Source: a virus
IMG/VR virus record: IMGVR_UViG_3300033145_001595
Span: 38,929-102,928 of that record
Reading direction: 5' to 3' (one strand)
DNA: 64,000 nt
Under the pieces are notes generated by a model. It was not told where the DNA came from, ran no database searches, and saw nothing but the letters and a program-made list of their open reading frames with translations. This document shows positions 10,547 through 37,011 of this stretch, piece by piece; the first letter of the stretch is position 1; each line of letters opens with the position of its first letter. Position numbers and translations under genes: made by a program.

Positions 10547-11521
10547 TTAGTACTCCCCATATGGTGTCCTACTCATTTTGGCAGAATCCAACCTAGGAAA
10601 GACAAACTTCTGCAAAAATTCCATTGACGAGAACTTAGAAATGGATACCATATGTGCCCTCTCCCCCCGAATACCCGGAGAATTTAATATGTCTTTCCAG
10701 TCCTCAGCCCAATGCCTACCGTATCGTTCTTTCAACCCTGCACACCAAAAATTCTCATAAATACTATCATCAAATAAAATCCTAGACGAATACACCCTAT
10801 TAATTACCTCATGCCACTTAGGCGTGCTATGTGGACCAAATCCCTTTATACCATGAAAATGATGGGCTTTTGTATCAACTAATATAGGCACATCTGCAAA
10901 CCAAGCCTTCATACACATAGTAGCATCGCTGTAAGACCAATAGCCGGGCAAATTGGCCCATCCATTAAGGTAATCATACACTGCCTTCTTCATGGTCATA
11001 CCACACGCATACGAGCCATTACGTCGTTGGTAATGAACAGGATGCTTATTCACTGACATGTACCATCGCCATTTACTTGCAGCAAACGTAAATCCACCTC
11101 CATAGTTCGTTCCTCTGACCGGAAGGTCCGGTAGTGGTGTCCAGGGGTCGGTAAGTCTGTGCTGTGTCAATCCAGGTGTTATGATACTGTCTGGATGCTC
11201 ATTAACGGATGCCTCTAATGATTCAAAGAAGCCGGGAGTTGGCCATACATGGGCATCTATGAAACAAATAGTATCTCCAGTACTAAGTTGTGCTCCCATC
11301 CTTCTACAATTTGAAACTCCCCCACGAGTTTCTTTTAATATAGGAAGGAACGTAGGATAACGATCTGCAAAACCTAAAAGAATTTCTCTTGTTTTGTCTG
11401 TTGAACAATCATCTATAATTATTAACTCGTGTGGGGACTCCGGTAAAACATCACATATAGCCTGCATCGACCGGGGAAGCCATTTTGCTTCATTATAAGT
11501 AGGTATGACAATGCTTAACAT
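10547..11521 (-). CDS. GT-A fold glycosyltransferase with DxH motif
   Basis: SIVIPTYNE, IIIDDCSTD, FIDAH, GYWSYSD. Confidence 0.88.
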   Translation of the reverse strand: MLSIVIPTYNEAKWLPRSMQAICDVLPESPHELIIIDDCSTDKTREILLGFADRYPTFLPILKETRGGVSNCRRMGAQLSTGDTICFIDAHVWPTPGFFESLEASVNEHPDSIITPGLTQHRLTDPWTPLPDLPVRGTNYGGGFTFAASKWRWYMSVNKHPVHYQRRNGSYACGMTMKKAVYDYLNGWANLPGYWSYSDATMCMKAWFADVPILVDTKAHHFHGIKGFGPHSTPKWHEVINRVYSSRILFDDSIYENFWCAGLKERYGRHWAEDWKDILNSPGIRGERAHMVSISKFSSMEFLQKFVFPRLDSAKMSRTPYGEY

Positions 11522-12759
11522 TATTCTTCTCCAGTGTAAAACTTAACAATAGTGTTAACAACATATTTAACTTTTTCACGCGGAATAGTAGGCCACATAG
11601 GCAAAGATAAAATTCTTTCGGACATATGATCTGTAATTGCAAATTCATTTGTAATTTCAGTATTATTATTTCTTGTTTTGTACATAGGCATTGTATGTAA
11701 TGGATTAGGATAGTGAACACCTGTATGCACATCATGTTCTTTCAAGTAACTGACAAGTTTATCTCGCTGTTCAGCTAAAATAACAAAATGATGATAAACT
11801 GAATCATAATTTGTATTTGACAAACTATTATATTTAATATGGTCATTGCCAACAAAACTTATTGGTATACGATGTTTAAGAAAATAATGATAATACCATT
11901 GTGCTACCACTTTTCTTTTTAAGTTATTATATGAAAGTTTAGTTAATTTTCTTATTAATACAGCAGCTTGAAATTCATCAAGTCTACTATTATAACCAAG
12001 TAACGTATGTTCATTTTTTGCAGATTGTCCATGATGTTGTAACTGTTTTATTTTTAAAGCAACAAAATCAGCAAAACTAGAAGATTCCACATTGTTTACT
12101 GTAATTACACCACCATCTCCATAACAACCTAAATTCTTTATTGGCCCACAACTAAAACAACCAATGTCCCCAACACTTCCAAGTTTTTGTATTGGTTTGT
12201 TATTACTATTATTAAAATAACACCCACCATGTGCATGAGAACAATCCTCAATTAAAAACAATTTATGATTGTCCGCTATTTCCCGTAAACACGTAACAGG
12301 TTCAATATGATAAGAAGCATTTGAACTTACCCAAGTATAAATATCAGCAGGGATACCATGCATATGAACAACTAAAATAGCTTTTGTTCTCTTTGTTATT
12401 TTACTAATAACTTCTTCCACATTAGGGCCACACGATACCCTATCCACGTCAACTAAAATAGGTGTGGCTCCAACATGATAGATAGCTTCCAGGTCTGCCG
12501 CGAAAGCATTGTCCTGTAGGATTACCTCATCACCAGAACCTATGCCAAGAGCCAGCATTCCAAGGATAAGCGCATCTGTACCGCTTGCAACACCTACGGC
12601 GTATGTGGAACCTATGTACTCTGCAAATCGTGTCTGAAAGGCTGACAGATACGGACCTTTGAGTAGACGACCAGAATTCATTATATTAGTCAAGTCATTA
12701 CTAATTTCATTTTTAATATAATCATCTTCTACTGATAAATCTAATAAAGGCACATACAT
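11521..12759 (-). CDS. DegT/DnrJ/EryC1/StrS PLP-dependent sugar aminotransferase
   Basis: GVASGTDAL, IEDCSHAHG, catalytic Lys in SCGPIKNLGCYGDGG, GYNSRLDEFQAA, LSLPMWP. Confidence 0.93.
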   Translation of the reverse strand: MYVPLLDLSVEDDYIKNEISNDLTNIMNSGRLLKGPYLSAFQTRFAEYIGSTYAVGVASGTDALILGMLALGIGSGDEVILQDNAFAADLEAIYHVGATPILVDVDRVSCGPNVEEVISKITKRTKAILVVHMHGIPADIYTWVSSNASYHIEPVTCLREIADNHKLFLIEDCSHAHGGCYFNNSNNKPIQKLGSVGDIGCFSCGPIKNLGCYGDGGVITVNNVESSSFADFVALKIKQLQHHGQSAKNEHTLLGYNSRLDEFQAAVLIRKLTKLSYNNLKRKVVAQWYYHYFLKHRIPISFVGNDHIKYNSLSNTNYDSVYHHFVILAEQRDKLVSYLKEHDVHTGVHYPNPLHTMPMYKTRNNNTEITNEFAITDHMSERILSLPMWPTIPREKVKYVVNTIVKFYTGEE

Positions 12760-12777
12760 TTTTACACTCTTTTCTAT

Positions 12778-13833
12778 TTATGAATTTATGTCTGTAACAT
12801 TAAAATTCTTACGTTCTAATGCATCACAAACGAGAAAGGTAGCCGGTGCTGCATCTGATATGGAGCATAGTGGTGTGGCATCATGGCGAACACAATCATA
12901 AAAATTCTCATAAATATCTACTGATTCAACAGTTTCTCCAATACTTAAAATAGGAGCTTCACCTTTACTATGAACCTCAATATAATTTTGTGTAACAGTA
13001 ATAGTTTCTCCACCATAACTACGAATTGTAATAGTGGGAGTTCCATTTTTATCCATAACTGTAGAACCAGAATAAACAAATTCTATTTGTTTTCTTTCAG
13101 AAGATATTTGACAACTTATATTTGCTTTATCATCCATTTCTAAGCCAATACAATTTTTCCTTATTTTGTAAAAATAAGCTCGTATATCATCAAAAGAAAA
13201 ACCACCAGAAAGTTCACATACACCAGCAAGCCATAGTCCTAATTGAATCCAATGAATACCTTGATTCATAGTAGAACCATCAAACAAATCCATACCATTA
13301 AAGGCACGCTTACCAAACCATTGAGAATTATCATAATAAGCATTTTCTCTACGACAGGGTACTATTATTTTTATACTTTCTACTGAATCTTGATTTTCAA
13401 AGATATTTTTTTCAATATAAAGTTTAGCAGCCTGTGCTGTTTTATCTCCCATATGATGATACCCAATACATAATTTACTTCCTTCATGTTTACGCATTAC
13501 TTCTTTTATTTTGCATACTCCTACTATATTAGGAGCTAAAGGTTTTTCACAGAAAACAGCAACACCCCTACTAAGAAAATATTTTACTATTTTTTCATTT
13601 AATGCATAAGGTACTGAAACAAAAACAGCTTCAAGTTTGGGATCACTAGGGAAACTAGCAATTTTTTCATAATCATATACTCGCTTTGGTCCATGTATAT
13701 GTCTTTTAGAAGAATCACATACAGAAATAACATTAAAATTCAATGAGTTCTCAAGAGCATTATAATGTGTATGACCCCTCTTGCCCATTCCTATAACTGC
13801 TACATTAACTGGCTTACCATTACTCGTTCCCAT
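12778..13833 (-). CDS. Gfo/Idh/MocA family NAD-dependent oxidoreductase
   Basis: VIGMGKRG, VFCEKPLA, NQGIH. Confidence 0.88.
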   Translation of the reverse strand: MGTSNGKPVNVAVIGMGKRGHTHYNALENSLNFNVISVCDSSKRHIHGPKRVYDYEKIASFPSDPKLEAVFVSVPYALNEKIVKYFLSRGVAVFCEKPLAPNIVGVCKIKEVMRKHEGSKLCIGYHHMGDKTAQAAKLYIEKNIFENQDSVESIKIIVPCRRENAYYDNSQWFGKRAFNGMDLFDGSTMNQGIHWIQLGLWLAGVCELSGGFSFDDIRAYFYKIRKNCIGLEMDDKANISCQISSERKQIEFVYSGSTVMDKNGTPTITIRSYGGETITVTQNYIEVHSKGEAPILSIGETVESVDIYENFYDCVRHDATPLCSISDAAPATFLVCDALERKNFNVTDINS

Positions 13834-13851
13834 CTGTCTGCCCTCTCTATC

Positions 13852-14631
13852 TTATACTGTAAAGTAAGGGGTAACTACGTTCAAGTACATCTCCCAAAGA
13901 AGTTGCTCTACCTCAATATCTACTTTTGTACTATCCCATTGCACTATACCAATTCCAGTTGCCCACGGTCTAAGCTTCCTATCCCATTCATCTATACCTA
14001 TAGTTTTATAAATAATGCCTTGCTTATCAAAAACATTTGTTAACCTACCCCAAGCACGTTTAACAAGCTTCGTTCTACCTACATCGTGAAAGCCAATGAC
14101 ACCACCATCCACAACATATTTACGAAATGCTAAATAATCATGTACAACATGATTAGTTTTATGACACCCATCAATATAAAGAAATTGACACATTCCAAAT
14201 TTAGTTGCTATTATTTGCGCTCGGGGATCAACTGAATTACCAACAAATTGTTCTACATAAATTCCAGATGTCCTCATATAATCTAAAGCTCTATACAAAG
14301 GAGCAGTAGCATGTTTTCTATCACATAAATCTATTGATAAAAAACTACAAGTACGTGTAGGATCAAATAAACTATTAAATGCTAATCCGGTTCCACCACA
14401 GTAAGAACCAATTTCAATAATTTTACAAACCTTATGACCTAAATTTGTTTCAATAATTTCATTTACCATTTGGCATAAACGCACTAATTGACTAGTATCA
14501 TGTCTAATTTCACATTCAAGCTCATCTGCTTTATTTACCATGTCCATAACACGATGTGCTATATCCAAAGAACCATAATCTTTTCTGTTTAATTCACCCC
14601 GTAAATCAAGTGACTCTTTTTGAGTAACCAT
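13852..14631 (-). CDS. Class I SAM methyltransferase (Methyltransf_24-like)
   Basis: IEIGSYCGGT, FLYIDGCH, GGVIGFHD. Confidence 0.85.
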   Translation of the reverse strand: MVTQKESLDLRGELNRKDYGSLDIAHRVMDMVNKADELECEIRHDTSQLVRLCQMVNEIIETNLGHKVCKIIEIGSYCGGTGLAFNSLFDPTRTCSFLSIDLCDRKHATAPLYRALDYMRTSGIYVEQFVGNSVDPRAQIIATKFGMCQFLYIDGCHKTNHVVHDYLAFRKYVVDGGVIGFHDVGRTKLVKRAWGRLTNVFDKQGIIYKTIGIDEWDRKLRPWATGIGIVQWDSTKVDIEVEQLLWEMYLNVVTPYFTV

Positions 14632-15570
14632 TTAACATTCCTTTCCTATTTTTTCAAAATACATTCCAACACGTCCTGTTGAAAGTCGCCTTGTAAACCT
14701 ACCAAACTCTTTATCACGATCTTCTAATTTACTAATAAATTCTAATAATTTCATATAAACTACTTCTAATCTATCCATTGTAAAATCAACATAATTATCT
14801 TCAAGGTACGGTATCAAAGGATACCCATTACCAAAATCTACATTCTTTTCTTTCCAAAGTCGTCCAGCTTTTGCATCAGCTTTACCAGACCGACACAAGT
14901 GTTTTAATCCATCGTAAATTCTATATACATAAGTATATGCATCAAATGGTGGATTTGGATGATGAATAATTTTATTTCTTTTATGGTAATCCATAATAAG
15001 CGGTAATTCAATACTTCTATTACCTACTTTGTAAGGAACACTAGTACCCGCTCTAAAAATCATTTGACCATCATACCTACCAGTGCGTATATCAAGTGGT
15101 TTCCATTTTGGTGATGGAACATACTTTGGATCACGCATCCTCCAAGCAGCTTCATATTTAACACATTCCATATCTTCATTATCAAGTAATTTTCCAACTC
15201 CATATTCAAGATGCCACGGAAGATAAATATCATCATCTTCCCAATGTGCAATAAAGTCTGTTTCAGCATTATCTAACAATGATTGTTTTTTATTACTAAG
15301 TTGTTCGTACTCATCACTATTAACTATTCGTATAGCCTTTTTAGTAGCAACATATTCATATTCGTACTGTGGCTCTCCTACATCATCAGTATAAAGCACA
15401 AGCGGCGTAGGTGCATCATTACCAATGACCAGTGTAGACATTCCGGGATAGCCCTGAGACAAAAACGATGCTATAGCATCTCGTACTTTATCATGTCTAC
15501 CATATGTAGGACAGATACAAGTAACATGAGGCCAGTAGTAATGCTCAAAAAGTCTTTTTTTCAATGGCAT
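14632..15570 (-). CDS. GT2-like glycosyltransferase
   Basis: CICPTYGR, GNDA, HWEDDDIYLPWH. Confidence 0.82.
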   Translation of the reverse strand: MPLKKRLFEHYYWPHVTCICPTYGRHDKVRDAIASFLSQGYPGMSTLVIGNDAPTPLVLYTDDVGEPQYEYEYVATKKAIRIVNSDEYEQLSNKKQSLLDNAETDFIAHWEDDDIYLPWHLEYGVGKLLDNEDMECVKYEAAWRMRDPKYVPSPKWKPLDIRTGRYDGQMIFRAGTSVPYKVGNRSIELPLIMDYHKRNKIIHHPNPPFDAYTYVYRIYDGLKHLCRSGKADAKAGRLWKEKNVDFGNGYPLIPYLEDNYVDFTMDRLEVVYMKLLEFISKLEDRDKEFGRFTRRLSTGRVGMYFEKIGKEC

Positions 15571-15579
15571 ATTATTGTA

Positions 15580-16470
15580 TTACCACTTTTCCAATCCAAG
15601 AGAAAGTTGAATTTTTGTATTTACCCTTGCTGCTACTTCTTCTGGAAGTCTAGCAACATCATATAAAGATTTACCAAACCGTTCAAACATAGGTCGCAAA
15701 TGATAAATTGCCCAATCCTTAAGCATAGAACTTGTCATTACTGGCACTAGATAATTATTCCCAAAATCCTTATTCTTTGCAGAATATAATCTTTGTATTC
15801 GTAAATTAGGAGCATTACTACCAATTTTATGTAAATGTCTTACATCATCATGTCGTCTGTATATGTAACTATACATTTCTTTTGTTACACTACCGGATGG
15901 TGCTAATAACGTTCCTTTTTCCTTGAAAGCATGAGCAACCATTCTTGGTACACGTCGTTCTAAATTTGAATCATATTCTATTTGAGTACCATTAATATAA
16001 ATCATTTGCCCATCAAATCTCTGTCTGTAAAGAGACTCAGCCTTTTCCTCTCCAGGCTTACCACCACAGAACCATGCTACTCGTGGCTTAACACATTCAC
16101 TACCCTCAGTATTAGCATAATGTTCTAAGTAAGGAATCCAAGTACTAAAATGCCAAGGAAGAAATAAATCATCATCATCCCAATGCGCCAATAAATCAGT
16201 ATCAGAAATATCTACTAATTCCTGTCTTTTAGCTCCCAATGTTTTACAACGTTCACCGCGATTGAAAATATTTATTCTTGACCCATCTGACAATTGTATC
16301 GTATTCTCATTACCATAAGAAAGTTTAATTGGAACTTCAGCATCATTAATAATATTCATTTCTTTATGGCCTTCATACTCTTGCAGTATGAAGCAAGCAG
16401 CAGAATCCCGTAGCCGGTGAAACCTACCATACGTCGGGCACATAGCTGTTACTGAATGTAACTTGCTCAT
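15580..16470 (-). CDS. GT2-like glycosyltransferase, paralogue of 14632-15570
   Basis: AMCPTYGR, INDA, HWDDDDLFLPWH. Shares R(F/Y)DGQMI and KNxDFGN with its neighbour. Confidence 0.82.
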   Translation of the reverse strand: MSKLHSVTAMCPTYGRFHRLRDSAACFILQEYEGHKEMNIINDAEVPIKLSYGNENTIQLSDGSRINIFNRGERCKTLGAKRQELVDISDTDLLAHWDDDDLFLPWHFSTWIPYLEHYANTEGSECVKPRVAWFCGGKPGEEKAESLYRQRFDGQMIYINGTQIEYDSNLERRVPRMVAHAFKEKGTLLAPSGSVTKEMYSYIYRRHDDVRHLHKIGSNAPNLRIQRLYSAKNKDFGNNYLVPVMTSSMLKDWAIYHLRPMFERFGKSLYDVARLPEEVAARVNTKIQLSLGLEKW

Positions 16471-17105
16471 GCTGTAAATCCCTTTCTTCTACGGGTAATA
16501 ATTTTTTTTGCAACAAGAACATCATATTCCTTATGCTGTACAAAATGAAAAATCTGTGTTGCCCAACCATTTTTTGATAAAAAGTAATCTATAATTGTTT
16601 GTATGTTATACTGATTCCATAATATACATTTCTTATTCGGGTGGGAAACGCCTACACGCTCACCCTCCTCATAGTTAATACCATTGAAAAAAGAAGCTAT
16701 AATGATTTTAGGATTTATTGCTATTGCCCAATCAAAAAATTCATCAATACTATTCAAATGCTCAACTACAGCAAAAGCACAAACTAAATCTATATTACGA
16801 TTACCTGACATACGGAAAGAACTAATATTTCTAAAATCATTATGAATGAATCTACTATTACAATGAGGCCAAAGTTGATCGCATGTACTTTCTGATTTAC
16901 AAACATCTATGTTTGTATAAGTTCCACCAGTAGGTAACATTTTAGGAATAGGACTATAATTACCACCTACTTCAATTACACGAGAAACATTATTATTACT
17001 AATAACTTCTTTTACAAACTTCCAAGCATCCTTATGCCTTCTAATCATACGAACATATTTTTTACTATCACGGCTCTGCCAATAATCAATTTCTGCTTTT
17101 TCCAT
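16467..17105 (-). CDS. Putative class I SAM methyltransferase
   Basis: VIEVGG, YTNID, DLVCAFAVVEHL. Confidence 0.7.
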   Translation of the reverse strand: MEKAEIDYWQSRDSKKYVRMIRRHKDAWKFVKEVISNNNVSRVIEVGGNYSPIPKMLPTGGTYTNIDVCKSESTCDQLWPHCNSRFIHNDFRNISSFRMSGNRNIDLVCAFAVVEHLNSIDEFFDWAIAINPKIIIASFFNGINYEEGERVGVSHPNKKCILWNQYNIQTIIDYFLSKNGWATQIFHFVQHKEYDVLVAKKIITRRRKGFTA

Positions 17106-17117
17106 GTTGCCCCTTTT

Positions 17118-18491
17118 CTACTTTTCAGCAATAACGGCAAAATCTTTTCCAAGCATGTAACTTTTAACTACATTAAAATTTGCTTTTTCAAAAAGATTCA
17201 AAACATCAGAACAGCATTGCATTGTATGGCAATGATCCCCCTTAAAGCTAATGCCACCCTTAAACTCAATAGGCACAACAATCATAGCGTACCCACCAGA
17301 TTTCAAGACTCGTTTTACCTCTGAGAGCACTTGAACGGGATCATGACAATGCTCAAGATTATGAAATTCAGTAACAGCCCGAAATGTATTATCTTCATAC
17401 CTACTAAGATCATGTGCATCACCCTGTTCAACTGGACGCCCATTATCATAAGCCCACTTAGCAGACCAAGGAGACAACTCAATACCATGAATAGTATTAT
17501 ATTCAAATCCACATTCCATTAAATAATTTAATACATATCCATCCCTAGAACCTATGTCCAATAAAGGAAGATCTTCCCTTTCCAAATAACCTTCCTCGTC
17601 CAAAAACTCTAAGAAACTATTAACATCACGCCTTTGTCTCTTCTTATCAGGATACCAGTCCCTACCCGGCGAACGCTTTGCTTGGTATGCTACATAAGCA
17701 GCTTGTCCACTTGGCTTTGCTAAACCTAAATCAGTATCCAAAGTTAATGCTACTTCGGGCTCTTTCCAAATAGCCTTTCGGAAAAAAATTTCTTCTTGAA
17801 CTACTCTATGTTCTTTCATCCAACTTTTTTCCGAATCCACCTTAACCTGCATTTTTATTAGTTTCAAATTTTCTTCTTGATTACTGGAAAGGCAAAGAAA
17901 TAATTCTTTTTCTTTCACTTCCCCATCAATTCCAATAACTGTACGCATAAATTCTTCTTTGAACAAGGCTTCAAAAGTCATATCTTCAAAATAAGCTGTA
18001 TGAATAAAATAATCATTATGTATTGATCTATAATAAATTGTAGAACGTGCTTCATTAATAAATATGTCAGAAACACTATACACTTTAACACCACTAAAAT
18101 AAGCTTTAAGTCCAATTGCTATACAATCACCATCATACTCAGATTCAGGTAATTGACATGGAGCAAGTTTTTCAACAACATTTTTATTCATAAAAATCAA
18201 TGGTCCAAACGGTGCTTGTACTCGTAAAAACCTGTAAGGCTTACCTTTCCGAGTAGGAAGTGGTTCTTCGGTAAATTCAGTATGAATTAATGTACTTAAA
18301 CTCCAATTAGCATTATTTACTATAGTCTTTGATTCATCATTTGCTAAACGTATAATAGTAGGTACTAAAACATGATCCTGTTCTTTAGCAACAACTATCA
18401 TGGCACTAATAGTATCTAAATCATAAGTACCATTATCAAGATTTTTAACATCACCAGCAATAGCACCCCAATCATAAAATCTAATACCCAT
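17118..18491 (-). CDS. Degenerate GT-like N-terminal region fused to a class I methyltransferase
   Basis: C-terminal LLDIGSRDG, GIELS, QGDAHDL, HNLEH, RVLKSGG. N-terminal IAIGLKAYFSGV resembles the C-terminal part of neighbouring GTs. Confidence 0.75.
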   Translation of the reverse strand: MGIRFYDWGAIAGDVKNLDNGTYDLDTISAMIVVAKEQDHVLVPTIIRLANDESKTIVNNANWSLSTLIHTEFTEEPLPTRKGKPYRFLRVQAPFGPLIFMNKNVVEKLAPCQLPESEYDGDCIAIGLKAYFSGVKVYSVSDIFINEARSTIYYRSIHNDYFIHTAYFEDMTFEALFKEEFMRTVIGIDGEVKEKELFLCLSSNQEENLKLIKMQVKVDSEKSWMKEHRVVQEEIFFRKAIWKEPEVALTLDTDLGLAKPSGQAAYVAYQAKRSPGRDWYPDKKRQRRDVNSFLEFLDEEGYLEREDLPLLDIGSRDGYVLNYLMECGFEYNTIHGIELSPWSAKWAYDNGRPVEQGDAHDLSRYEDNTFRAVTEFHNLEHCHDPVQVLSEVKRVLKSGGYAMIVVPIEFKGGISFKGDHCHTMQCCSDVLNLFEKANFNVVKSYMLGKDFAVIAEK

Positions 18492-18493
18492 TT

Positions 18494-21400
18494 TTATTTA
18501 CCTTTCGAATCATAATTAATACTCAAAAATTCCATAAAATCCTCTGCATGTGTTCCCCCACCTGCTTTTCCAAGCATAGCAAAGAAATCTCCATCTGTCT
18601 TTCCATAGGCCTCTTTAAGTTTTGTCCAAATAGCACGCGCTTTCTGAACCTCTTCAGACTTCAAAAAAGTATCTATCCTATCATCATAACCATGCTCAAG
18701 AAGATATGGCTTAAAATACTCATAAGCTACATCACCAAAGAACAAATAATGAATAAGATGAGCATTCATTAATGTACCCACATGAGGAACGTCCATAGTA
18801 CCCTTTTTGTACATATGCTCAAAAGTAATATCTCTAGACGCATACATAGGTACTCCTATAATCCAAGCAGCTAAACCTATGTACTGTTCATTGTACGCCC
18901 ACAGTCCAGGTAAGGTAGGCCAGCCCCCAAGTCGATTTAACACCTTTTTGCTCATAACGTAACCAGCCCCAATAATAGCATCACGTCGAATAAAAGGAGT
19001 ATCCGGCTTAGTGGTGATATGAGAATTAAGAATACCCCATTTGGGTTTAAGAGAGAATCGCGCTCCATACGTACGAGCTTCTGACTTCTTAGCATTACCA
19101 AGATTACAAACATTTACTACCACAATACCGTCTTTCTCCTGAGCATGTGCTGCCGCCCATTCAATACCATATTGTGTAATAACCCTCTGGTGACAATCCA
19201 TAACACAGATCATTTCACCACGAGCAACAGAAATAGCCTCTGCCCTACTCCTAGAAACACCAATACGCTCAGTATGCCTAATTATACGAATCCTATCCTG
19301 TATATCTGCCCTCCAATGTCCGGCAAGCTTTGGACGAATATTGTCTGCAATATTATCCGGGATGCTTCCATCGGTAGAGGCATCATCAACAAGAATAATT
19401 TCAAACCTAGTTTGTCCACTATTGATAATGGATCGTAATGTTAATTCGACTTCTTTACCCTCATTATAGGCAGTAAGAATAACAGAAATCGGTAGTACCT
19501 TTTTAATAGACTGATTATGCTCTCCACAGGTTTCAGTAGGTACTCGCAGAACATCACGGAAGAATTCAGCATCAGAATGAATTCTACCTTTCTGCCAATG
19601 GCCCGTCTCGTAAAGTTTACCTGCCTTCATAGCTTCTAAAGTACTGCGGTGTTCGGGACTTATTTGATTTATGTAATGAGGTTCCCAAACATTTTCATAT
19701 GTTTCCCGATCAAACAAAGCAAGATGGGAAGCAAGATGGTTTAGATTCAAGTCACTTGTTGGAGGATAACCCCAAGGCGGCTCTTTACTACCCTTTGCAG
19801 CTTCAGACCTATAAAGATGCCGCACAGTGTACTTGGGGAAACAATAGCATTCAACTCCATGTAACCATGCCCACGAATTCAATGCCGATTCTTCATAACC
19901 CCATTTGCCATTGATAGACGGCCAACGTGTAAGATCATCAAAAATCTCACGAGGCACAAAATAACAAGCTCCTAAAACACCCGTTGTTAATTCTGGATCA
20001 GTACCTTTAGTTCTATAATAAGAACATCCAATTTTACCATCCCTATGATAATTAAGTTTTGCCCCCCAACCTTGAGGACCACCAAACATTGCAGCTACTC
20101 CGGGACAGGCGATAGCGTGCTTTTCTAAGACGAACCCACCTATCTCATGCCACATTCCCTTTGGATAGCGCATATGAGCATCTGAGCTAACTACTACCCG
20201 ACCACGCGCGGCTGCAAAGCCAATGTTTCTTGCCATGCCAGCACCAACAGATTTTTTCAATGTGATTACTATAACATAGGCATTATTAGTATTATACTTG
20301 TTCAAACCCTCACATGACCCATCTGTAGACGCATCATCCACTACGATTACCTCCAACGGGCCTGTAGTGGCCGCTATGGCACTTTCAACAGTCTTAGCAA
20401 CCTCTTCCCCCTCATTCATAGAAGCATACACCACAGACACCATAAAATCAGATTTCATAGTAGTAAATGACTCATCTGTATGTGGCGGGGGTGCTACACC
20501 GGGGAGCACGCCGAAGGGATGGGTTTTCCTATCCTTAACACGTTCTTCTGCGGTTGGAAGGGGTCCAACTTTTTCCACTGTATTTGTTTTTACTATTTCC
20601 TTTTTTGGAGTTAGTCGCATGTTTACTGGTTGCTCCTGTTCTATACCATTATTAAGTAATCGAGTTACCTCAGAAAATACTATTCTACTTATTTGACAAA
20701 AATCTTCATACGGTGTAATAGTCGTAATTTTTTTACCCGTTGTTGGGTCTGTGCTAATAACAATTCTATTACCACACATAAGATCAACAAAACATGGACA
20801 ATTACATGTTGGGGCACATTCACAATCTTGACATTGAGCATTAGTAGGGAAAGGTGTAATTTTATCATAAATAGTAGTAGCTGGATTATTTAGTTCTGCT
20901 ACATTAACACCATTTTTTAAGTCACCAATTTTATAAAAGTTTCTTCCATCTATAGCTGCTTTATAGCACCCAAAAATATCACCAGATGCATTTACGGCAC
21001 ACCTACTACTTGCTACACCACAACTACCACAATTATTACCCTTTTTACATATCTCTGCACCCTTATATGTAAATGTGTACGATCCATTCAGAAAACTAAG
21101 GCGCTTGCCCTTTAATGAACTACTATTAAGAAAAGAATCAGCACACTCACGTATTTGCAAATCTAACGTAGAATAAAACTCAGACGGCCATTCTGGCTCA
21201 ATACATATGAATTCCACTTCTACCAAATCTGTAAAACTAAGTAAATGCAAAGCACTTTTTGCCATATCAACAATAGTAGCTTGGGTAACAACCATCTTAA
21301 TAGTAGGATGCAACCCAAGCAAACGCATATCTTTCAATGCAGAATGTGCAACACCAAACTTTACACCATTCTTATGCACTGAATTTATTGATTCATCCCC

Positions 21401-21862
21401 ATCTACATGAGCTTCTACAATAATATTATGTTCTTTAAGAAATGCAATCTTTTCCCCATCCATATTCTGCAAATTAGTTTTTACTGTTATCTCTGCATCA
21501 AGGTCTAAAACATTACTAATATTACGAGCAGTAGATAAAAGAAAAGAAGTAACTGTAAAATTCAACAAAGGTTCTTGACCAAGAAAATTTATCTTAATCT
21601 TCCTCTTCTCTTTTTTAATAAGAACTATATTATCTTTTTCCTTTTTCTCCTCTTCCTTTTCTTCCACAATCTTTTCCGCAGCTACAGAAGCTATATGCAT
21701 ATTCAAAAACCACGTAATAGCATTAGCAAAATTAGTTTGAATCTTCTCTGCGGATGCCGGAGCATTGTCTGGCCCGCTCTTGTTCGTACAGTAATCACAC
21801 GTCAAGTTACAACCCCATTGAAAAACTAAATCCAGTTCTGTAGGTAAAAACCTATCAACCAT
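18494..21862 (-). CDS. Radical SAM-SPASM domain fused to two tandem GT-A glycosyltransferase domains
   Basis: CNLTCDYC, GQEPLL, SPASM Cys clusters CGVAS...GDIFGC and CQDCECAPTCNCPC, then two GT domains (VVDDASTDGS...SDAH; LVDDASTDGS...MDCH). GGAG RBS before the ATG at 21862. Confidence 0.88.
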   Translation of the reverse strand: MVDRFLPTELDLVFQWGCNLTCDYCTNKSGPDNAPASAEKIQTNFANAITWFLNMHIASVAAEKIVEEKEEEKKEKDNIVLIKKEKRKIKINFLGQEPLLNFTVTSFLLSTARNISNVLDLDAEITVKTNLQNMDGEKIAFLKEHNIIVEAHVDGDESINSVHKNGVKFGVAHSALKDMRLLGLHPTIKMVVTQATIVDMAKSALHLLSFTDLVEVEFICIEPEWPSEFYSTLDLQIRECADSFLNSSSLKGKRLSFLNGSYTFTYKGAEICKKGNNCGSCGVASSRCAVNASGDIFGCYKAAIDGRNFYKIGDLKNGVNVAELNNPATTIYDKITPFPTNAQCQDCECAPTCNCPCFVDLMCGNRIVISTDPTTGKKITTITPYEDFCQISRIVFSEVTRLLNNGIEQEQPVNMRLTPKKEIVKTNTVEKVGPLPTAEERVKDRKTHPFGVLPGVAPPPHTDESFTTMKSDFMVSVVYASMNEGEEVAKTVESAIAATTGPLEVIVVDDASTDGSCEGLNKYNTNNAYVIVITLKKSVGAGMARNIGFAAARGRVVVSSDAHMRYPKGMWHEIGGFVLEKHAIACPGVAAMFGGPQGWGAKLNYHRDGKIGCSYYRTKGTDPELTTGVLGACYFVPREIFDDLTRWPSINGKWGYEESALNSWAWLHGVECYCFPKYTVRHLYRSEAAKGSKEPPWGYPPTSDLNLNHLASHLALFDRETYENVWEPHYINQISPEHRSTLEAMKAGKLYETGHWQKGRIHSDAEFFRDVLRVPTETCGEHNQSIKKVLPISVILTAYNEGKEVELTLRSIINSGQTRFEIILVDDASTDGSIPDNIADNIRPKLAGHWRADIQDRIRIIRHTERIGVSRSRAEAISVARGEMICVMDCHQRVITQYGIEWAAAHAQEKDGIVVVNVCNLGNAKKSEARTYGARFSLKPKWGILNSHITTKPDTPFIRRDAIIGAGYVMSKKVLNRLGGWPTLPGLWAYNEQYIGLAAWIIGVPMYASRDITFEHMYKKGTMDVPHVGTLMNAHLIHYLFFGDVAYEYFKPYLLEHGYDDRIDTFLKSEEVQKARAIWTKLKEAYGKTDGDFFAMLGKAGGGTHAEDFMEFLSINYDSKGK

Positions 21863-21897
21863 TCTCCATTCTCCTAAGTTACACAGAAATTGCCCAT

Positions 21898-22272
21898 CTA
21901 CTCTATTACACACCTAGCTCTAACATAAAAGCGACAAAGAAAATTGCAACTACGGGCAGAAAGCTCATATCCATATCTAGCTGGATGTTTACACCGAAAT
22001 CGCCTAGAACAACACAGTCCTGTTTCCTCAGCATCTTTACACATTCCAGCAGTGGATGCAATGGTATCATGGATATTTGGTCTTTTTGATAGGTAGTTGT
22101 CATTGTTTATAGGCAGACCGTAAGGACAGTCAAAATCTACATTAACTATGTCAGAAAAAATCTTACACTTTTCTTCACGCCATAATCTCATTTGACGACA
22201 AACATGAACAGCTTTTTTGCCCTTACATATTTGAGCACAAACTTCCTCACGAAATAATCTTATTCTTCTCAT
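21898..22272 (-). CDS. Small cysteine-rich basic protein
   Basis: 124 aa with about 12 Cys, between the tail-tip genes and the rSAM fusion. Confidence 0.6.
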   Translation of the reverse strand: MRRIRLFREEVCAQICKGKKAVHVCRQMRLWREEKCKIFSDIVNVDFDCPYGLPINNDNYLSKRPNIHDTIASTAGMCKDAEETGLCCSRRFRCKHPARYGYELSARSCNFLCRFYVRARCVIE

Positions 22273-28577: not shown

Positions 28578-28964
28578 TTAAGCTACCGTAGTGGTAACAC
28601 CAGCGATGTTCAAATAACCAGAACCCTGGAATGAGAACACTACCGACGCAACACCATCTACAGTAACACTTAATGAAACAGAAGTAATAAGAATTGCTCC
28701 AGTGTACAAAACACCAGCAGTCGCAAAGAACTCTGCTGCTGCCGCTGGTTTTCCTGGATGGGAAATCTTTGTCGTGTTATCAAGTCTACACTCATACTGA
28801 CCAGACCATGTTCTAAGACCGCCAATATATTCTCGATACCCATTACCTGCAAACGTAGTCACTTCTAAGGCATCTGCGGCGTAATCAATAGACCAACTGA
28901 AAACACCAGTTTTATAACCAGAGGCGAATGTAACATTTCCACCTTTTCCACTTATTGCCGCCAT
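28578..28964 (-). CDS. Tail tube protein paralogue 1 (short)
   Basis: MAAISGKGG...WSIDYAADALEVT...YIGGLRTWSG...FSFQGSG, a lambda/TP901-like tube pattern. Confidence 0.8.
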   Translation of the reverse strand: MAAISGKGGNVTFASGYKTGVFSWSIDYAADALEVTTFAGNGYREYIGGLRTWSGQYECRLDNTTKISHPGKPAAAAEFFATAGVLYTGAILITSVSLSVTVDGVASVVFSFQGSGYLNIAGVTTTVA

Positions 28965-28986
28965 ATTGTACTCCTTTCACTTATAT

Positions 28987-29697
28987 TTATGGTTCTGTAC
29001 TAGTACTACTTGTTGAGCTACTTGTTGAGCTACTTGTTGAACTACTGGACGAGCTACTAGACGAGCTACTACTACTAGATGAACTACTCGTTGTCGTACT
29101 CGTTGTCGTGCTCGTTGACGTGCTGCTGGACGTACTAGATGAACTACTAGACGAACTACTACTAGTAGGTGAACTACTTGAACTAGACGAGCTACTTGAA
29201 CTAGTAGGTGAACTACTTGAACTAGACGAGCTACTTGAACTAGTAGGTGAACTACTTGAACTAGACGTACTACTTGACGAACTAGTAGTTGAACTGGTAG
29301 TAGATGACGAACTAGTAGTAGTTGTCACTACACCGGCTATAGTAATATGACCAGAACCTTGAAAAGAGAACGTTGCGGCTGAAAGCCCGTCAACAGGAGT
29401 ACTTAAAGAAATAGAGGTAATAATAATACTACCACTATAAGAAATGCCAGTAACCGCAAGAAATGTTGCAGCCGCCGCATCATGGCCCGGATGTAAAACT
29501 TTTACTGTGTTATCAAGTCTACACTCGTACTGACCAGACCAAGCTTTTAATCCAGGAATATAATTTCTATAACCACCATCCGCGAAATCTGTTGATTCCA
29601 AGGCATCGGCCACATAGTCAATCGACCAACTGTATACATTTGTGGTGTATCCAGAGACGAAAGTAACATTTCCATTCTTTCCACTTATTGCTGCCAT
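28987..29697 (-). CDS. Tail tube protein paralogue 2 with ~110-aa Ser/Thr tail
   Basis: Same tube domain followed by a poly-Ser/Thr tract ending STSTEP. Confidence 0.8.
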   Translation of the reverse strand: MAAISGKNGNVTFVSGYTTNVYSWSIDYVADALESTDFADGGYRNYIPGLKAWSGQYECRLDNTVKVLHPGHDAAAATFLAVTGISYSGSIIITSISLSTPVDGLSAATFSFQGSGHITIAGVVTTTTSSSSTTSSTTSSSSSTSSSSSSPTSSSSSSSSSSSPTSSSSSSSSSSSPTSSSSSSSSSSTSSSTSTSTTTSTTTSSSSSSSSSSSSSSSSSTSSSTSSSTSSTSTEP

Positions 29698-29718
29698 ATG
29701 TTTTAGCTCCTATTTAAT

Positions 29719-31095
29719 CTACGATATTGTAACTGTTGCGGGACACGTAGTGCAATCCCCTGAGTCCAAAGAATATATGCCATCTGGACAATCACTATCT
29801 CCCCATGCTTCCATTTTCCAAACACATGATTCACCCAATGATCCAACTGTAAGAGTCCAATAACCACTAACACAATCAAGATCAGCATCACATGAGTCAT
29901 TACCACCAGTTCCCGCCCAATCACAACCAAACGTCCTATTCAATGTATATGAACCAGTACAATCTGCTATTCCACAATCTATAGTTCCTGTCAATGTAAA
30001 CGAGTACGATTCATTACAACCATCACACGTACCGGACGGGCAAGTAGGGGGCATTGGGGTTGTTGACGATGTTGACGATGTAGATGAACTACTTGAACTA
30101 CTCGTTGGGGAACTACTGGTACTGGATGAACTACTTGAACTTGAAGGTGAACTACTAGTACTGGATGAACTACTTGAACTCGTTGGAGAACTACTTGAAC
30201 TGGACGAACTAGTAGGAGAGCTACTAGAACTACTACTTGTGGGTGAACTACTAGTAGATGTTGAAGAACTTGGTGTAGAATTTGAACTGGATGATGATGG
30301 ACTAGAAGATGTGGACGAACTGCTTGAACTGCTCGTTGGAGAACTACTTGAACTGGATGAACTGCTACTACTCGTTGGAGAGCTACTTGAACTGGATGAA
30401 CTACTAGTACTCGTTGTACTGCTCGTTGTACTAGTGGATGAACTCGTACTTGATGAACTTGACGTGGTTGAAGTGGAACTACTGCTGGACGAACTCGTTG
30501 GTGAACTACTTGAACTAGACGAACTTGAAGGTGTACTACTAGAACTACTTGAACTCGAAGCAGAACTAGACGAACTACTACTACTTGACGAACTCGTTGG
30601 AGAACTACTAGTAGAGGACGATGAACTAGTAGTAGTAGTTGTCATACCAGTTACAAATGGACATGGCACTCCAATTGCATAATACACCCCATCTGGATAT
30701 ATGCCCTCTTCCCCTGGTTGAACTACTCCACCTGTAATGCGCAAATGCCCTGTACCAGTAAATGCAAACACAACATTGCAAACACCATCCACAGGAACAC
30801 CCAAAGACATATTAGTAATAATTGCACTACCTTCATATGCTGCTCCCGCTTCTGCCTCTAACATTATATCAGCAGCAACCCTACCGGGCGGTCCTACCAA
30901 TGCTATATTATCTAATCTACATAAAAATTGACCAGTAAATGATTTTAGACCGGGAATGTGGTACTTATAACTATTCGATACCCAATTAGTAGTTTCTAAT
31001 GCATCGGCGTTGTATTCCATACTCCATTCATGCACACCAGTTGTATAACCTGTTGTGAATATGACTCTTCCAGTTTTTCCAGATATAGTTGCCAT
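29719..31095 (-). CDS. Tail tube protein paralogue 3 with ~195-aa Ser/Thr/Pro tract and Cys-rich C-terminal domain
   Basis: Tube domain, SSSSPT repeats, then a domain of about 105 aa with about 12 Cys. Confidence 0.8.
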   Translation of the reverse strand: MATISGKTGRVIFTTGYTTGVHEWSMEYNADALETTNWVSNSYKYHIPGLKSFTGQFLCRLDNIALVGPPGRVAADIMLEAEAGAAYEGSAIITNMSLGVPVDGVCNVVFAFTGTGHLRITGGVVQPGEEGIYPDGVYYAIGVPCPFVTGMTTTTTSSSSSTSSSPTSSSSSSSSSSSASSSSSSSSTPSSSSSSSSSPTSSSSSSSTSTTSSSSSTSSSTSTTSSTTSTSSSSSSSSSPTSSSSSSSSSSSPTSSSSSSSTSSSPSSSSSNSTPSSSTSTSSSPTSSSSSSSPTSSSSSSSSPTSSSSSSSTSSSPSSSSSSSSTSSSPTSSSSSSSTSSTSSTTPMPPTCPSGTCDGCNESYSFTLTGTIDCGIADCTGSYTLNRTFGCDWAGTGGNDSCDADLDCVSGYWTLTVGSLGESCVWKMEAWGDSDCPDGIYSLDSGDCTTCPATVTIS

Positions 31096-36940: not shown

Positions 36941-37011
36941 TTGAAACTCCTTTATCGTAATTACCATTACTTTCTTGCTTGTAACTTCATACTCTTATTT
37001 ACTTAACTACC

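What the first reader, a model, noticed from the sequence alone, without database searches (positions are those of the whole stretch)
10547..20450. Three GT domains carry polypeptide GalNAc-transferase (GT27)-like motifs
Seen: the domains have DxH rather than DxD (SDAH, MDCH, IDAH). These are followed by WGYEESALNSWAWLHG...VRHLYR, WAYNEQYIGLAAWIIG...FEHMYK and WSYSDATMCMKAWFAD...HFHGIK. Known: eukaryotic ppGalNAc-Ts, which initiate mucin-type O-glycosylation on Ser/Thr, have DxH, a WGGENxExSxRxWxCGG motif and a downstream HxFR metal ligand. Inference: these are peptide-acting initiating enzymes for the S/T tracts, and the CPTYGR/DDD pair (14632-16470) extends the chain. Caveat: some bacterial GT2s of other function also have DAH.
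Basis: partly seen in the sequence, partly recalled or inferred. Interest (0 to 1): 0.82.

Follow-up and report, generated by a model that had tools for sequence, protein, structure and literature searches.

The report
Phage mucin-type virion glycosylation enzymes
An uncultured tailed phage encodes three enzyme domains whose closest known relatives are the animal enzymes that start mucin glycosylation, and it hangs long serine/threonine tails on its tail-tube and other late-module proteins, so it probably sugar-coats its own particle, although no sugar has been measured.

Summary
The window is part of a 103-kb IMG/VR tailed-virus record.

**Motifs.** All three GT-A domains carry DxH, a W-x3-acidic motif and a His exactly 28 residues after the Trp. 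These residues are invariant in their metagenomic homologues. The composite pattern occurs nowhere else among window ORFs.

**Closest relatives.**
- For all three domains, the closest solved structures are eukaryotic ppGalNAc-transferases (GT27), at Z 26-27 over about 295 residues.
- The best lipid- or sugar-acceptor GT2 reaches Z 20 or less.
- Profile searches for two of the domains match both halves only in GT27.

**Differences from GT27.** There is no lectin domain and no membrane anchor. An invariant Glu/Asp sits where GT27 has Asn, at the catalytic-base position of inverting GT-A enzymes.

**Substrate reading.** This part is inferred, not shown.
- Four late-module proteins carry 60-210-residue Ser/Thr tracts, two of them tail-tube paralogues.
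- No enzyme in the cluster has a membrane segment.
- A distant 55-59% GC phage (L013) has the same enzyme trio directly after tail genes whose products also have Ser/Thr tails.
- Six other phage loci with related domains show no such tracts within 10 kb.

The scan noted a similar GT27-like pairing on other DNA (e1-5900779). I found no published description.

The parts
10547..11521 (-). Stand-alone GT27-like glycosyltransferase, 324 aa (DAH 89-91, W195..D199, His223)
   Evidence: Pfam GT2 1.9e-27. The profile search against PDB puts a ppGalNAc-T first, at 3e-23 over residues 3-243. Foldseek's top ~49 hits are all GT27. VIA gives Z 26.3 against 19.9 or less for GT2.
11521..12759 (-). DegT/DnrJ/EryC1-type sugar aminotransferase, 412 aa
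   Evidence: Pfam PF01041 7e-90. NCBIfam PseC/ArnB/WecE-type hits, all below their cut-offs.
12778..13833 (-). GFO/IDH/MocA NAD-dependent oxidoreductase, 351 aa; probable sugar dehydrogenase partner of the aminotransferase
   Evidence: Pfam PF01408 3e-15. Weak NCBIfam hit to UDP-GlcNAc 3-dehydrogenase, 3.5e-9, below cut-off.
13852..14631 (-). Methyltransf_24 methyltransferase, 259 aa
   Evidence: Pfam PF13578 4e-12. Fused to a CPTYGR-type GT in L002 and found beside the GT trio in L013.
14632..15570 (-). Divergent GT-A (CPTYGR...DDD), 312 aa
   Evidence: Pfam GT2 2.7e-4, below cut-off. NCBIfam PglI/EpsE about 3e-6, below cut-off. PDB SpsA/PglI E 0.03-0.05.
15580..16470 (-). Paralogue of the preceding GT-A, 296 aa
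   Evidence: One L002 ORF (6872-7774) matches both this gene (42.5%, 1.9e-74) and its neighbour 14632-15570 (35.4%, 2.6e-50). Only a weak PDB hit, E 0.047.
16467..17105 (-). Possible methyltransferase, 212 aa
   Evidence: Pfam Methyltransf_23 E 0.0096, below cut-off.
17118..18491 (-). 457-aa protein: degenerate GT27-like remnant (about residues 33-243, without DxH, W-acidic motif or C-His) fused to a class I methyltransferase (about 293-443)
   Evidence: hhalign against fusion domain 2: 96% probability, E 1.8e-9. Pfam Methyltransf_11 1e-15. P0026 is a GT-GT-methyltransferase fusion.
18497..19492 (-). GT27-like domain 2 of the fusion protein (DCH 889-891, W988..E992, His1016)
   Evidence: VIA Z 26.4, 292 aligned, rmsd 2.7 to Toxoplasma GalNAc-T3. 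phmmer top hit GalNAc-T12, 3.7e-6. hhalign to the other two domains, E 5e-34 and 3e-40.
19493..20506 (-). GT27-like domain 1 of the fusion protein (DAH 561-563, WGYEE 654-658, His682)
   Evidence: The top 15 hits of the profile search against PDB are all ppGalNAc-T, at 1.7e-17, aligned through to HLYRS/HVFRS. VIA Z 27.2, 301 aligned, to GalNAc-T2.
20633..21862 (-). Radical SAM/SPASM domain of the fusion protein (CX3CX2C at residues 18-25)
   Evidence: Pfam Radical_SAM and Fer4_12. Best NCBIfam hit is the PapB ranthipeptide maturase, 5e-24, followed by other peptide-modifying rSAM families, all below cut-off. The model has low confidence here.
28578..28964 (-). Tail-tube paralogue 1, 128 aa, no long tract (ends ...TTTVA)
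   Evidence: PHROG major tail protein 5e-7. Sequence.
28987..29697 (-). Tail-tube paralogue 2, 236 aa, with a C-terminal Ser/Thr tract of about 115 residues (candidate acceptor)
   Evidence: Homologues P0044 and P0045 also end in Ser/Thr tails.
29719..31095 (-). Tail-tube paralogue 3, 458 aa, with a Ser/Thr/Pro tract of about 210 residues and a Cys-rich C-terminal domain (candidate acceptor)
34271..35245 (-). 324-aa protein encoded between the capsid and head-tail adaptor genes, with a C-terminal Ser/Thr tract of about 65 residues (candidate acceptor; family unknown)
   Evidence: No Pfam or PHROG family.
46299..48017 (-). 572-aa ORF with two Ser/Thr tracts. The second continues in another frame after an extra TT near 46700.

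Best explanation
The phage carries its own cytoplasmic protein O-glycosylation pathway for its virion.

**The three GT-A domains.** One is a stand-alone 324-aa enzyme. Two are fused behind a radical SAM/SPASM domain. All three are paralogues of one family, and that family's closest characterised relatives are the eukaryotic polypeptide GalNAc-transferases (GT27).

**Proposed steps.**
1. By homology, each domain binds a nucleotide-sugar and a divalent metal through DxH plus a C-terminal His.
2. By inference, each transfers sugar directly to Ser/Thr hydroxyls. The acceptors would be the mucin-like tails on two of the three tail-tube paralogues, a 324-aa protein encoded between the capsid and adaptor genes, and a 572-aa protein.
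3. The neighbouring oxidoreductase and aminotransferase probably make an amino-sugar donor.
4. The two divergent GT-A enzymes probably extend the glycan.
5. Three to four methyltransferase domains probably cap it.

The expected result is a glycan brush on the tail and probably the head.

**Shown here:** fold and motif kinship to GT27, paralogy of the three domains, conservation of the cluster, presence of the tracts, and the same pairing in a second phage lineage.

**Inferred, not shown:** the acceptor, the donor, the anomeric outcome and the order of the steps.
For: **Fold.**
- Foldseek top ~49 PDB hits for the 324-aa model are all GT27, about 325 columns, E 2e-19.
- An all-against-representatives VIA search gives GT27 at Z 26.3 and 25.8 with 294 residues aligned. 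The best GT2 scores Z 19.9.
- Both fused domains score Z 27.2 and 26.4 against GT27. The first 29 entries are all GT27 and the next entry scores 19.5.

**Sequence.**
- Profile searches for the stand-alone enzyme and fused domain 1 match GT27 across both halves. Other GT2s match only the first ~100 residues.
- For fused domain 2, a single-sequence search puts GalNAc-T12 first, at 3.7e-6, aligned through the W motif. Its profile match reached only the N-terminal half.
- Taujale et al. 2020 (PMC7185993) state that the DxD-to-DxH replacement is confined to GT27 and GT60. Both are polypeptide Ser/Thr O-glycosyltransferase families. They also state that the C-His binds the metal in GT27.

**Context.**
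- Four late-module proteins carry Ser/Thr tracts of 60-210 residues.
- The cluster is co-oriented with the tail genes and lies directly after them.
- No cluster protein has a membrane segment.
- Family searches of the cluster proteins matched no lipid-carrier enzyme, flippase or oligosaccharyltransferase.
- The N-terminal domain of the fusion resembles peptide-modifying rSAM/SPASM maturases.

**Comparative.**
- The whole cluster is syntenic in L002.
- Tail-tube homologues elsewhere end in Ser/Thr tails.
- L013 is a 55-59% GC phage with 41% and 31% identity to the window enzymes. It has the same trio with the same motifs (DAH..WGAEE..H, DGH..WAYQE..H, DAH..WGGND..H) directly after its tail genes.
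- In L013 the head-closure, tail-terminator-containing, major-tail-paralogue and distal-tail ORFs all carry Ser/Thr tracts.
Against: - No glycan, activity or acceptor was measured. Everything about the substrate is inference from context.
- Six IMG/VR loci with related full-length domains (L014-L017, L028, L048) show no Ser/Thr tract within 10 kb. After collapsing near-identical contigs the enrichment is 2 of 8 against 3 of 67, Fisher p 0.085.
- The strict GT27 motif WGGEN is not kept. An invariant Glu/Asp sits at the xED-Asp position, which is the catalytic base in inverting GT-A enzymes such as GT7 and GT2 (PMC7185993). The domains could therefore be inverting enzymes, and some could take sugar acceptors.
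- There is no lectin domain.
- Two-domain GT-GT proteins are also typical of glycosaminoglycan polymerases.
- Fold similarity does not prove acceptor type.
Confidence: 0.6

Rival explanations
1. The GT27-like domains are chain-building enzymes, not initiators. They would be inverting transferases that add sugars to sugar acceptors. The GT-GT fusion would act as a bifunctional polymerase making a repeating glycan, either on a primer set by another enzyme or as free polymer.
For: - An invariant acidic residue sits at the xED-Asp catalytic-base position in all three domains: E658, E992 and D199. This is a feature of inverting GT-A enzymes (PMC7185993).
- GT7 and the chondroitin-synthase GT2 subgroup share a clade with GT27.
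- Foldseek ranks the two-domain chondroitin and heparosan polymerases among the top hits for the whole fusion.
Against: - The polymerase matches have rmsd of about 20 Å over two domains and Z 19.5 or less, against 26-27 for GT27 per domain.
- DxH plus C-His is the GT27/GT60 signature.
- No export or membrane component is encoded in the cluster.
- No other candidate initiating enzyme was identified in the cluster apart from the weak CPTYGR pair.
Confidence: 0.17
2. The radical SAM-GT-GT protein matures a small Cys-rich peptide or domain in a RiPP-like or glycocin-like process. This would combine a thioether or other radical modification with glycosylation. The target would not be the long Ser/Thr tracts.
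For: - The N-terminal domain's best matches are the PapB, SCIFF, nif11 and dynobactin peptide maturases.
- A Cys-rich 124-aa ORF lies directly upstream.
- Tube paralogue 3 ends in a Cys-rich domain.
- A Bacteroidota cluster of structural look-alikes is fused to LanC-like domains in 36% of its members.
- SunS and ThuS peptide glycosyltransferases appear as weak hits.
Against: - The rSAM domain is dispensable in relatives. It is absent from the GT-GT gene in L013 and L002, and its Cys motif is degenerate in P0022. The GT-GT pair and the Ser/Thr tails persist.
- All rSAM hits are below the family cut-offs.
- This reading does not explain the stand-alone GT or the tracts.
Confidence: 0.1
3. The cluster modifies something other than phage proteins. 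Candidates are host envelope polymers (serotype conversion, teichoic-acid or O-antigen glycosylation) or phage DNA.
For: - Phage GT2 enzymes such as TarP and GtrB do this in known systems, and generic GT2 hits include them.
- Phage glycosyltransferases are best known for DNA glucosylation (reviewed in PMC12619734).
Against: - TarP, GtrB and ArnC score Z 18.3 or less, against 26 for GT27.
- There are no membrane segments.
- No thymidylate-synthase-type hydroxymethylase is found in the 103-kb record, which CheckV estimates as 84% complete.
- The cluster lies in the late structural operon beside the tail genes.
Confidence: 0.08

Closest known systems
Eukaryotic UDP-GalNAc:polypeptide N-acetylgalactosaminyltransferases (ppGalNAc-T, CAZy GT27), e.g. 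human GalNAc-T2 (PDB 2FFU, 4D0T), mouse T1 (8V9Q), Toxoplasma GalNAc-T3 (8UHV)
   Same: - GT-A catalytic domain superposes over about 290-300 residues at Z 26-27.
- DxH metal motif, often literally DAH.
- Trp-led motif at the start of the following helix.
- C-terminal His 28 residues after the Trp.
- Association with long Ser/Thr (mucin-like) tracts.
   Different: - 15-20% sequence identity.
- No ricin-type lectin domain and no membrane anchor or Golgi context.
- The WGGEN motif is degenerate (WGYEE, WAYNE, WSYSD), with an invariant acidic residue where GT27 has Asn. A retaining alpha-GalNAc chemistry therefore cannot be assumed.
- Encoded by a tailed phage, with two domains fused to a radical SAM/SPASM domain.
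Mycobacteriophage virion glycosylation (Freeman et al. 2023, Cell Host Microbe 31:1216; cited through PMC12619734, as the paper itself is not held)
   Same: Phage-encoded glycosyltransferases. Glycans are reported at the C-termini of capsid and tail-tube subunits. Here the acceptor candidates are likewise C-terminal tails of tail-tube subunits.
   Different: - No GenBank phage record, mycobacteriophages included, covers 80% or more of the 324-aa enzyme. Only the first ~35% matches, so the enzymes are not close homologues.
- The tracts here are far longer (60-210 residues).
- The cluster here also includes sugar-nucleotide tailoring enzymes and a radical SAM domain.
CAZy GT60 (UDP-GlcNAc:polypeptide alpha-GlcNAc-transferases of protists and some prokaryotes)
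   Same: According to PMC7185993, GT60 is the only other GT-A family with DxH in place of DxD. It also O-glycosylates polypeptides and sits next to GT27 in the GT-A tree. It is reported from prokaryotes.
   Different: The Pfam model for this family (PF11397, accession from memory) gave no hit at E up to 10. No GT60 chain was among the listed fold matches, so kinship could not be measured.
Bacterial and phage stand-alone GT2 + Glyco_transf_7C proteins (uncharacterised ESM Atlas clusters from Bacillota, Planctomycetota and Uroviricota)
   Same: Size of 290-360 aa. Predicted structures have TM 0.80-0.84 to this protein, as high as the eukaryotic ppGalNAc-T clusters.
   Different: These are only automatic names and no function is known. 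The window's proteins do not themselves reach the PF02709 model, although relatives P0027 and P0034 do.

Membership tests
CAZy GT27 (ppGalNAc-T) | GT-A catalytic domain closest in fold to solved GT27 enzymes | tested here: met
   Z 26.3 (324-aa enzyme). Z 27.2 and 26.4 (fusion domains). All top Foldseek ranks are GT27. The best non-GT27 scores Z 19.9 or less.
CAZy GT27 (ppGalNAc-T) | DxH motif in place of DxD | tested here: met
   DAH, DAH and DCH. D and H are invariant or at least 90% conserved in the homologues. They align to the DAH of GalNAc-T3.
CAZy GT27 (ppGalNAc-T) | C-terminal His as third metal ligand (HxFR region) | tested here: met
   H223 and H682 are invariant and H1016 is at least 90% conserved. 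Each lies 28 residues after the Trp. Ungapped alignment of HLYRS to HVFRS, and of HGIK to HVFR. Metal binding itself was not tested.
CAZy GT27 (ppGalNAc-T) | Gal/GalNAc-T motif WGGENxE | tested here: not met
   Only W (plus G and E in domain 1) is kept: WGYEE, WAYNE, WSYSD. The Asn position holds an invariant E, E or D.
CAZy GT27 (ppGalNAc-T) | C-terminal ricin-type lectin domain | tested here: not met
   No PF00652 hit at E up to 10. The proteins end in a helical extension that is part of the catalytic-domain alignment.
CAZy GT27 (ppGalNAc-T) | Type II membrane anchor and secretory-pathway location | tested here: not met
   No hydrophobic segment: maximum 19-residue Kyte-Doolittle mean is 0.79 and 1.39. 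The proteins start directly at the first beta-strand.
CAZy GT27 (ppGalNAc-T) | Transfers alpha-GalNAc from UDP-GalNAc to Ser/Thr of polypeptides | not testable with these tools
   Needs an enzyme assay and linkage analysis.
CAZy GT60 | Match to the family's sequence model | tested here: inconclusive
   No PF11397 hit at E up to 10, but HMMER filters drop weak matches. No solved GT60 structure was seen among the listed matches.
CAZy GT2 (inverting, DxD) | PF00535 match with DxD motif | tested here: not met
   PF00535 matches strongly. However, the motif is DxH, and the second half of the domain matches GT27 rather than GT2 structures. The Atlas ppGalNAc-T clusters also carry PF00535.
Mycobacteriophage-type virion glycosylation | Phage-encoded GTs together with Ser/Thr-rich C-terminal extensions on tail-tube or capsid subunits | tested here: met
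   Tail-tube paralogues 2 and 3 carry C-terminal tracts. GTs lie in the same late operon. The major capsid protein itself has no tract.
Mycobacteriophage-type virion glycosylation | Homology of the transferases | tested here: not met
   In tblastn against 50,697 phage records, none covers 80% or more of the query, and no Mycobacterium phage is among the 57 hits.
Peptide-modifying radical SAM/SPASM maturases | CX3CX2C cluster motif and a family-level match | tested here: inconclusive
   The motif is present at residues 18-25. The best NCBIfam hit is PapB at 85 bits, against a cut-off of 340. The model has low confidence in this region.

The most novel reading that the evidence does not exclude
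Tailed phages carry a branch of mucin-type protein O-glycosyltransferases related to GT27 and GT60. The branch has lost the lectin and membrane parts and kept a catalytic-base residue.

These enzymes would build dense glycan brushes on 60-210-residue Ser/Thr tails of tail-tube and head proteins. In this lineage the enzymes are physically coupled to a peptide-modifying radical SAM domain and to a methyltransferase carried on a dead GT27-like domain that serves as a glycopeptide-binding module.

This would make mucin-like glycoproteins a recurrent feature of phage particles, and would give a prokaryotic-virus relative of the enzymes that start animal mucin glycosylation.
Probability: 0.45. Interest if true: 0.82.

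Novelty: new variant of a known kind. Interest (0 to 1): 0.7.

Why it matters
- **Beyond the one studied case.** Virion glycosylation is experimentally known in tailed phages only from mycobacteriophages. There it is reported to shield particles against anti-phage responses. A second, unrelated enzyme type paired with much longer mucin-like tails would show that sugar-coated phage particles are more common and more varied than thought.
- **Consequences for phage biology.** A glycan coat bears on phage stability, adsorption, adherence to mucus or biofilm, and recognition by antibodies in phage therapy.
- **A useful enzyme.** It would provide small, soluble, lectin-free relatives of ppGalNAc-transferases that could serve for making mucin-type glycoproteins in bacteria.
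- **Enzyme evolution.** The family combines the GT27/GT60 metal site with the catalytic-base residue of inverting GT-A enzymes. It is therefore informative for how retaining and inverting chemistries diverged within that clade.

Tried and rejected
- The 92.7-kb, 52-kb, 22.6-kb and 16-kb contigs that appear to hold both GT types could not be fetched. Their co-occurrence rests on matching contig lengths only.
- **Scans that found nothing.** IMG/VR scans with the 324-aa family and with the capsid protein found nothing. The genome-contig scan also found nothing.
- **Sequencing runs.** No run was listed for the stretch, which says nothing about occurrence or expression.
- **GenBank phages.** blastn of the head module gave no match. 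Portal tblastn gave only about 26% identity, to phages of Bacillota, so the host remains unknown. One relative sits on a 3.6-kb MAG contig labelled Sphaerochaeta, which is a weak hint.
- **Literature.** Freeman et al. 2023 (PMC10527164) is not held, so its details are taken second-hand. Searches for GT27 in phages or prokaryotes found no description of such a system.
- **Viral structure library.** Fold search against BFVD gave weaker matches (TMq 0.61 or less) than PDB GT27.
- **Neighbouring ORF.** The 301-aa ORF at 9269-10174 has no Pfam, NCBIfam or PDB match.

Full report
**Setting.** The window is bases 38929-102928 of a 102,928-base IMG/VR virus record that CheckV estimates as 84% complete. 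It is a tailed virus. It has:
- an HK97-type capsid (35834-36967);
- a portal (41381-42841);
- an XkdF-type protease;
- a head-tail adaptor;
- a tape measure protein (25750-27879);
- a terminase carrying a LAGLIDADG insert.

Nearly all genes from about 10.5 kb to 57 kb lie on the minus strand. The finding's region therefore lies directly downstream of, and co-oriented with, the tail genes.

**Gene content of 10547-21913.** In map order:
- a 324-aa GT2-type enzyme;
- a DegT-family aminotransferase;
- a GFO/IDH/MocA oxidoreductase;
- a Methyltransf_24 enzyme;
- two divergent GT-A paralogues (CPTYGR...DDD);
- a possible methyltransferase;
- a 457-aa protein with a class I methyltransferase at its C-terminus;
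- a 1122-aa protein (1139 aa from the upstream GTG) made of a radical SAM/SPASM domain and two GT2-type domains.

PF00535 matches five places in the held record, all inside this cluster.

**The observation.**
- The composite pattern DxH...W-x3-acidic...His occurs exactly three times among all window ORFs, at the three domains.
- The three domains are paralogues over about 286 columns, with hhalign E values of 7e-25, 5e-34 and 3e-40. The alignment includes a shared C-terminal helical extension.
- In nine homologues of the 324-aa enzyme (50-61% identity) and twelve of the fusion (36-67%), the Asp and His of DxH, the Trp, the acidic residue four positions later and the downstream His are invariant or at least 90% conserved.
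- The Trp-to-His spacing is 28 in all three domains. The alignment of domain 1 to a solved GalNAc-T3 is ungapped over this stretch.

*Sequence.*
- A profile of the 324-aa family finds a ppGalNAc-T first (3e-23), aligned over residues 3-243. TarS, chondroitin synthase, DPMS, GalT1, ArnC and SpsA match only the first ~100 residues.
- A profile of the fusion family gives ppGalNAc-Ts as its top 15 hits, for domain 1, aligned through to the His.
- For domain 2, a single-sequence search puts GalNAc-T12 first, aligned up to the W motif.

*Structure.*
- The 324-aa model (pLDDT 81) has only GT27 chains in Foldseek's first ~49 ranks, with about 325 aligned columns.
- In a search that does not depend on Foldseek, GT27 representatives score Z 26.3 and 25.8 with 294 residues aligned. 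The best GT2 scores 19.9.
- In the fusion model the GT domains have pLDDT mostly 80-94. Domain 1 scores Z 27.2 to GalNAc-T2 and domain 2 scores Z 26.4 to Toxoplasma GalNAc-T3. The first 29 entries are all GT27 and the next entry scores 19.5.

*Literature.* Taujale et al. (PMC7185993) report three relevant points:
- The DxD-to-DxH replacement is confined to GT27 and GT60.
- Both families O-glycosylate polypeptides.
- The C-terminal His binds the metal in GT27.

**Where it departs from GT27.**
- There is no lectin domain and no membrane anchor.
- The WGGEN motif is degenerate.
- The position where GT27 has Asn holds an invariant Glu, Glu or Asp. This is the xED-Asp position, the catalytic base of inverting GT-A enzymes. 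It is my reading of the alignments and is not a tested property. It means that retaining alpha-GalNAc chemistry cannot be assumed.
- The same paper notes that some retaining families keep this residue without using it.

For these reasons I do not file the domains as GT27 members. They are the closest relatives of GT27 among solved structures and may work like it.

**Candidate acceptors.** Long Ser/Thr tracts occur in four minus-strand ORFs of the late gene block:
- tail-tube paralogue 2, with about 115 residues of tract;
- tail-tube paralogue 3, with about 210 residues followed by a Cys-rich domain;
- a 324-aa protein encoded between the capsid and adaptor genes, with about 65 residues at its C-terminus;
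- a 572-aa ORF with two tracts.

Tube paralogue 1 has no long tract and matches a PHROG major tail protein family. Homologous tail-tube proteins from other metagenomes (P0044, P0045) also end in Ser/Thr tails.

**Why direct protein glycosylation is the best reading.**
- None of the cluster's proteins has a membrane segment.
- Family searches of the cluster proteins matched no phosphoglycosyl transferase, flippase or oligosaccharyltransferase. A lipid-linked route is therefore not encoded here.
- No thymidylate-synthase-type hydroxymethylase is found in the record. This weakens a DNA-modification reading.
- The N-terminal domain of the fusion resembles peptide-modifying rSAM/SPASM maturases such as PapB, SCIFF, nif11 and dynobactin, all below cut-off. 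This points to a polypeptide substrate for that protein.

**Comparative evidence.**
- The complete cluster is syntenic in a JGI contig, L002.
- An IMG/VR scan with the fusion family returned 80 loci. Eleven hold a full-length relative of these domains, and the rest share only the generic nucleotide-binding half.

The closest of these loci is L013. It comes from a 55-59% GC phage, far from the 36% GC window. L013 has:
- a GT-GT protein without the rSAM domain, a stand-alone GT and a Methyltransf_24 enzyme, placed directly after its tail genes;
- the same motifs in all three domains: DAH..WGAEE..H, DGH..WAYQE..H and DAH..WGGND..H;
- Ser/Thr tracts on a head-closure protein, an ORF containing a tail-terminator domain, one of two major-tail paralogues, and a distal tail protein.

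A second group of four related contigs (L064, L065, L066, L085) has a single such domain preceded by Thr-tract ORFs.

Against this, six loci (L014-L017, L028, L048) show no tract within 10 kb. The raw count is 5 of 11 against 4 of 69 (Fisher p 0.002). After collapsing near-identical contigs it is 2 of 8 against 3 of 67 (p 0.085). The ±10 kb flanks may also miss tracts, since in the window itself the tracts lie 7-26 kb from the cluster. The comparative support is real but modest.

**Proposed working.** In the infected cell:
1. The oxidoreductase and aminotransferase convert a host nucleotide-sugar into an amino-sugar donor. This is inferred from the known pairing of these two enzyme families in 3-amino-sugar pathways, which I recall from memory, and from the weak hit.
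2. The GT27-like domains glycosylate the Ser/Thr tails.
3. The CPTYGR pair may extend the glycan.
4. The methyltransferases may cap it.

Which domain initiates and which follows is open.

The 457-aa protein's N-terminal part is a degenerate copy of the last two-thirds of a GT27-like domain. It lacks all catalytic residues. It could target the fused methyltransferase to the glycoprotein, but this is speculation.

**Novelty.**
- GenBank phages hold no record covering 80% or more of the 324-aa enzyme.
- The BFVD viral structure library holds nothing as close as PDB GT27.
- The exhaustive representative search finds only about a dozen full-length clusters at 50% identity.
- The ESM Atlas lists uncharacterised bacterial and Uroviricota clusters of similar size, with PF00535 plus PF02709 and TM of about 0.8. 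The broader fold class is therefore not rare, only unstudied.
- Phage virion glycosylation is known from mycobacteriophages.
- Earlier notes of this scan report a GT27-like enzyme beside Ser tracts in another phage (e1-5900779). That is an unchecked lead and not independent evidence.
- I found no published description.

Noticed in passing
window 46640-46830 (ORF 46299-48017, minus strand): One copy of the Ser-tract repeat reads ...tctagtTTtcaccc... where the other copies read ...tctagttcaccc.... The two extra T shift the frame, so the last ~129 residues of Ser tract (46312-46698) lie in another frame. This could be an assembly error in a repeat, a real frameshift or phase variation.
   Followed up: partly
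window 17118-18491 (minus): The N-terminal ~245 residues of the 457-aa methyltransferase protein are a degenerate copy of the C-terminal two-thirds of a GT27-like domain. DxH, the W-acidic motif and the C-His are all lost (hhalign 96%, E 1.8e-9). Relative P0026 is a GT-GT-methyltransferase fusion.
   Followed up: partly
window 18494-21913 and relatives P0022, L002, L013: The radical SAM/SPASM domain is optional in this family. Its CX3CX2C motif is degenerate in P0022. In L002 it appears to be a separate upstream ORF, and it is absent from the GT-GT gene of L013.
   Followed up: partly
window 28578-31095 (minus): Three tandem tail-tube paralogues with graded appendages: none, a Ser/Thr tract of about 115 residues, and a tract of about 210 residues plus a Cys-rich domain containing several C-x3-D-like spacings. 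L013 likewise has two major-tail paralogues, only one of them with a Thr tail.
   Followed up: partly
window 5175-7667 (plus): The large terminase (830 aa) carries a LAGLIDADG_3 domain at residues 295-351, which suggests an intein or homing-endonuclease insertion. The L005 relative (585 aa) matches in two pieces.
   Followed up: no
window 9269-10174 (plus): This 301-aa ORF beside the cluster has ...LDACRYDY... and ...ADHGEALGE... motifs that recall the alkaline-phosphatase/sulfatase superfamily (from memory). It has no Pfam, NCBIfam or PDB hit. It is conserved at 50% identity in L005.
   Followed up: partly
window 48517-48852 and 46299-48017 (minus): The 111-aa ORF is a paralogue of the domain that sits between the two Ser tracts of the 572-aa ORF. 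They share ...YFRF.DPSNDKVFDFDDDTWEV....
   Followed up: no
L036:5871-20302: This is an IMG/VR locus from the 'generic GT2' control group. It has three ORFs with 40-110-residue (ST)n tracts near a GT that matches only the first 144 positions of the 324-aa family. It may be another glycosylation pairing with a different enzyme.
   Followed up: no
window 21898-22272 (minus): A 124-aa Cys- and Arg-rich ORF lies directly upstream of, and overlaps the long-ORF start of, the rSAM-GT-GT gene. It is a possible substrate or partner of the radical SAM domain. No homology search was run on it.
   Followed up: no
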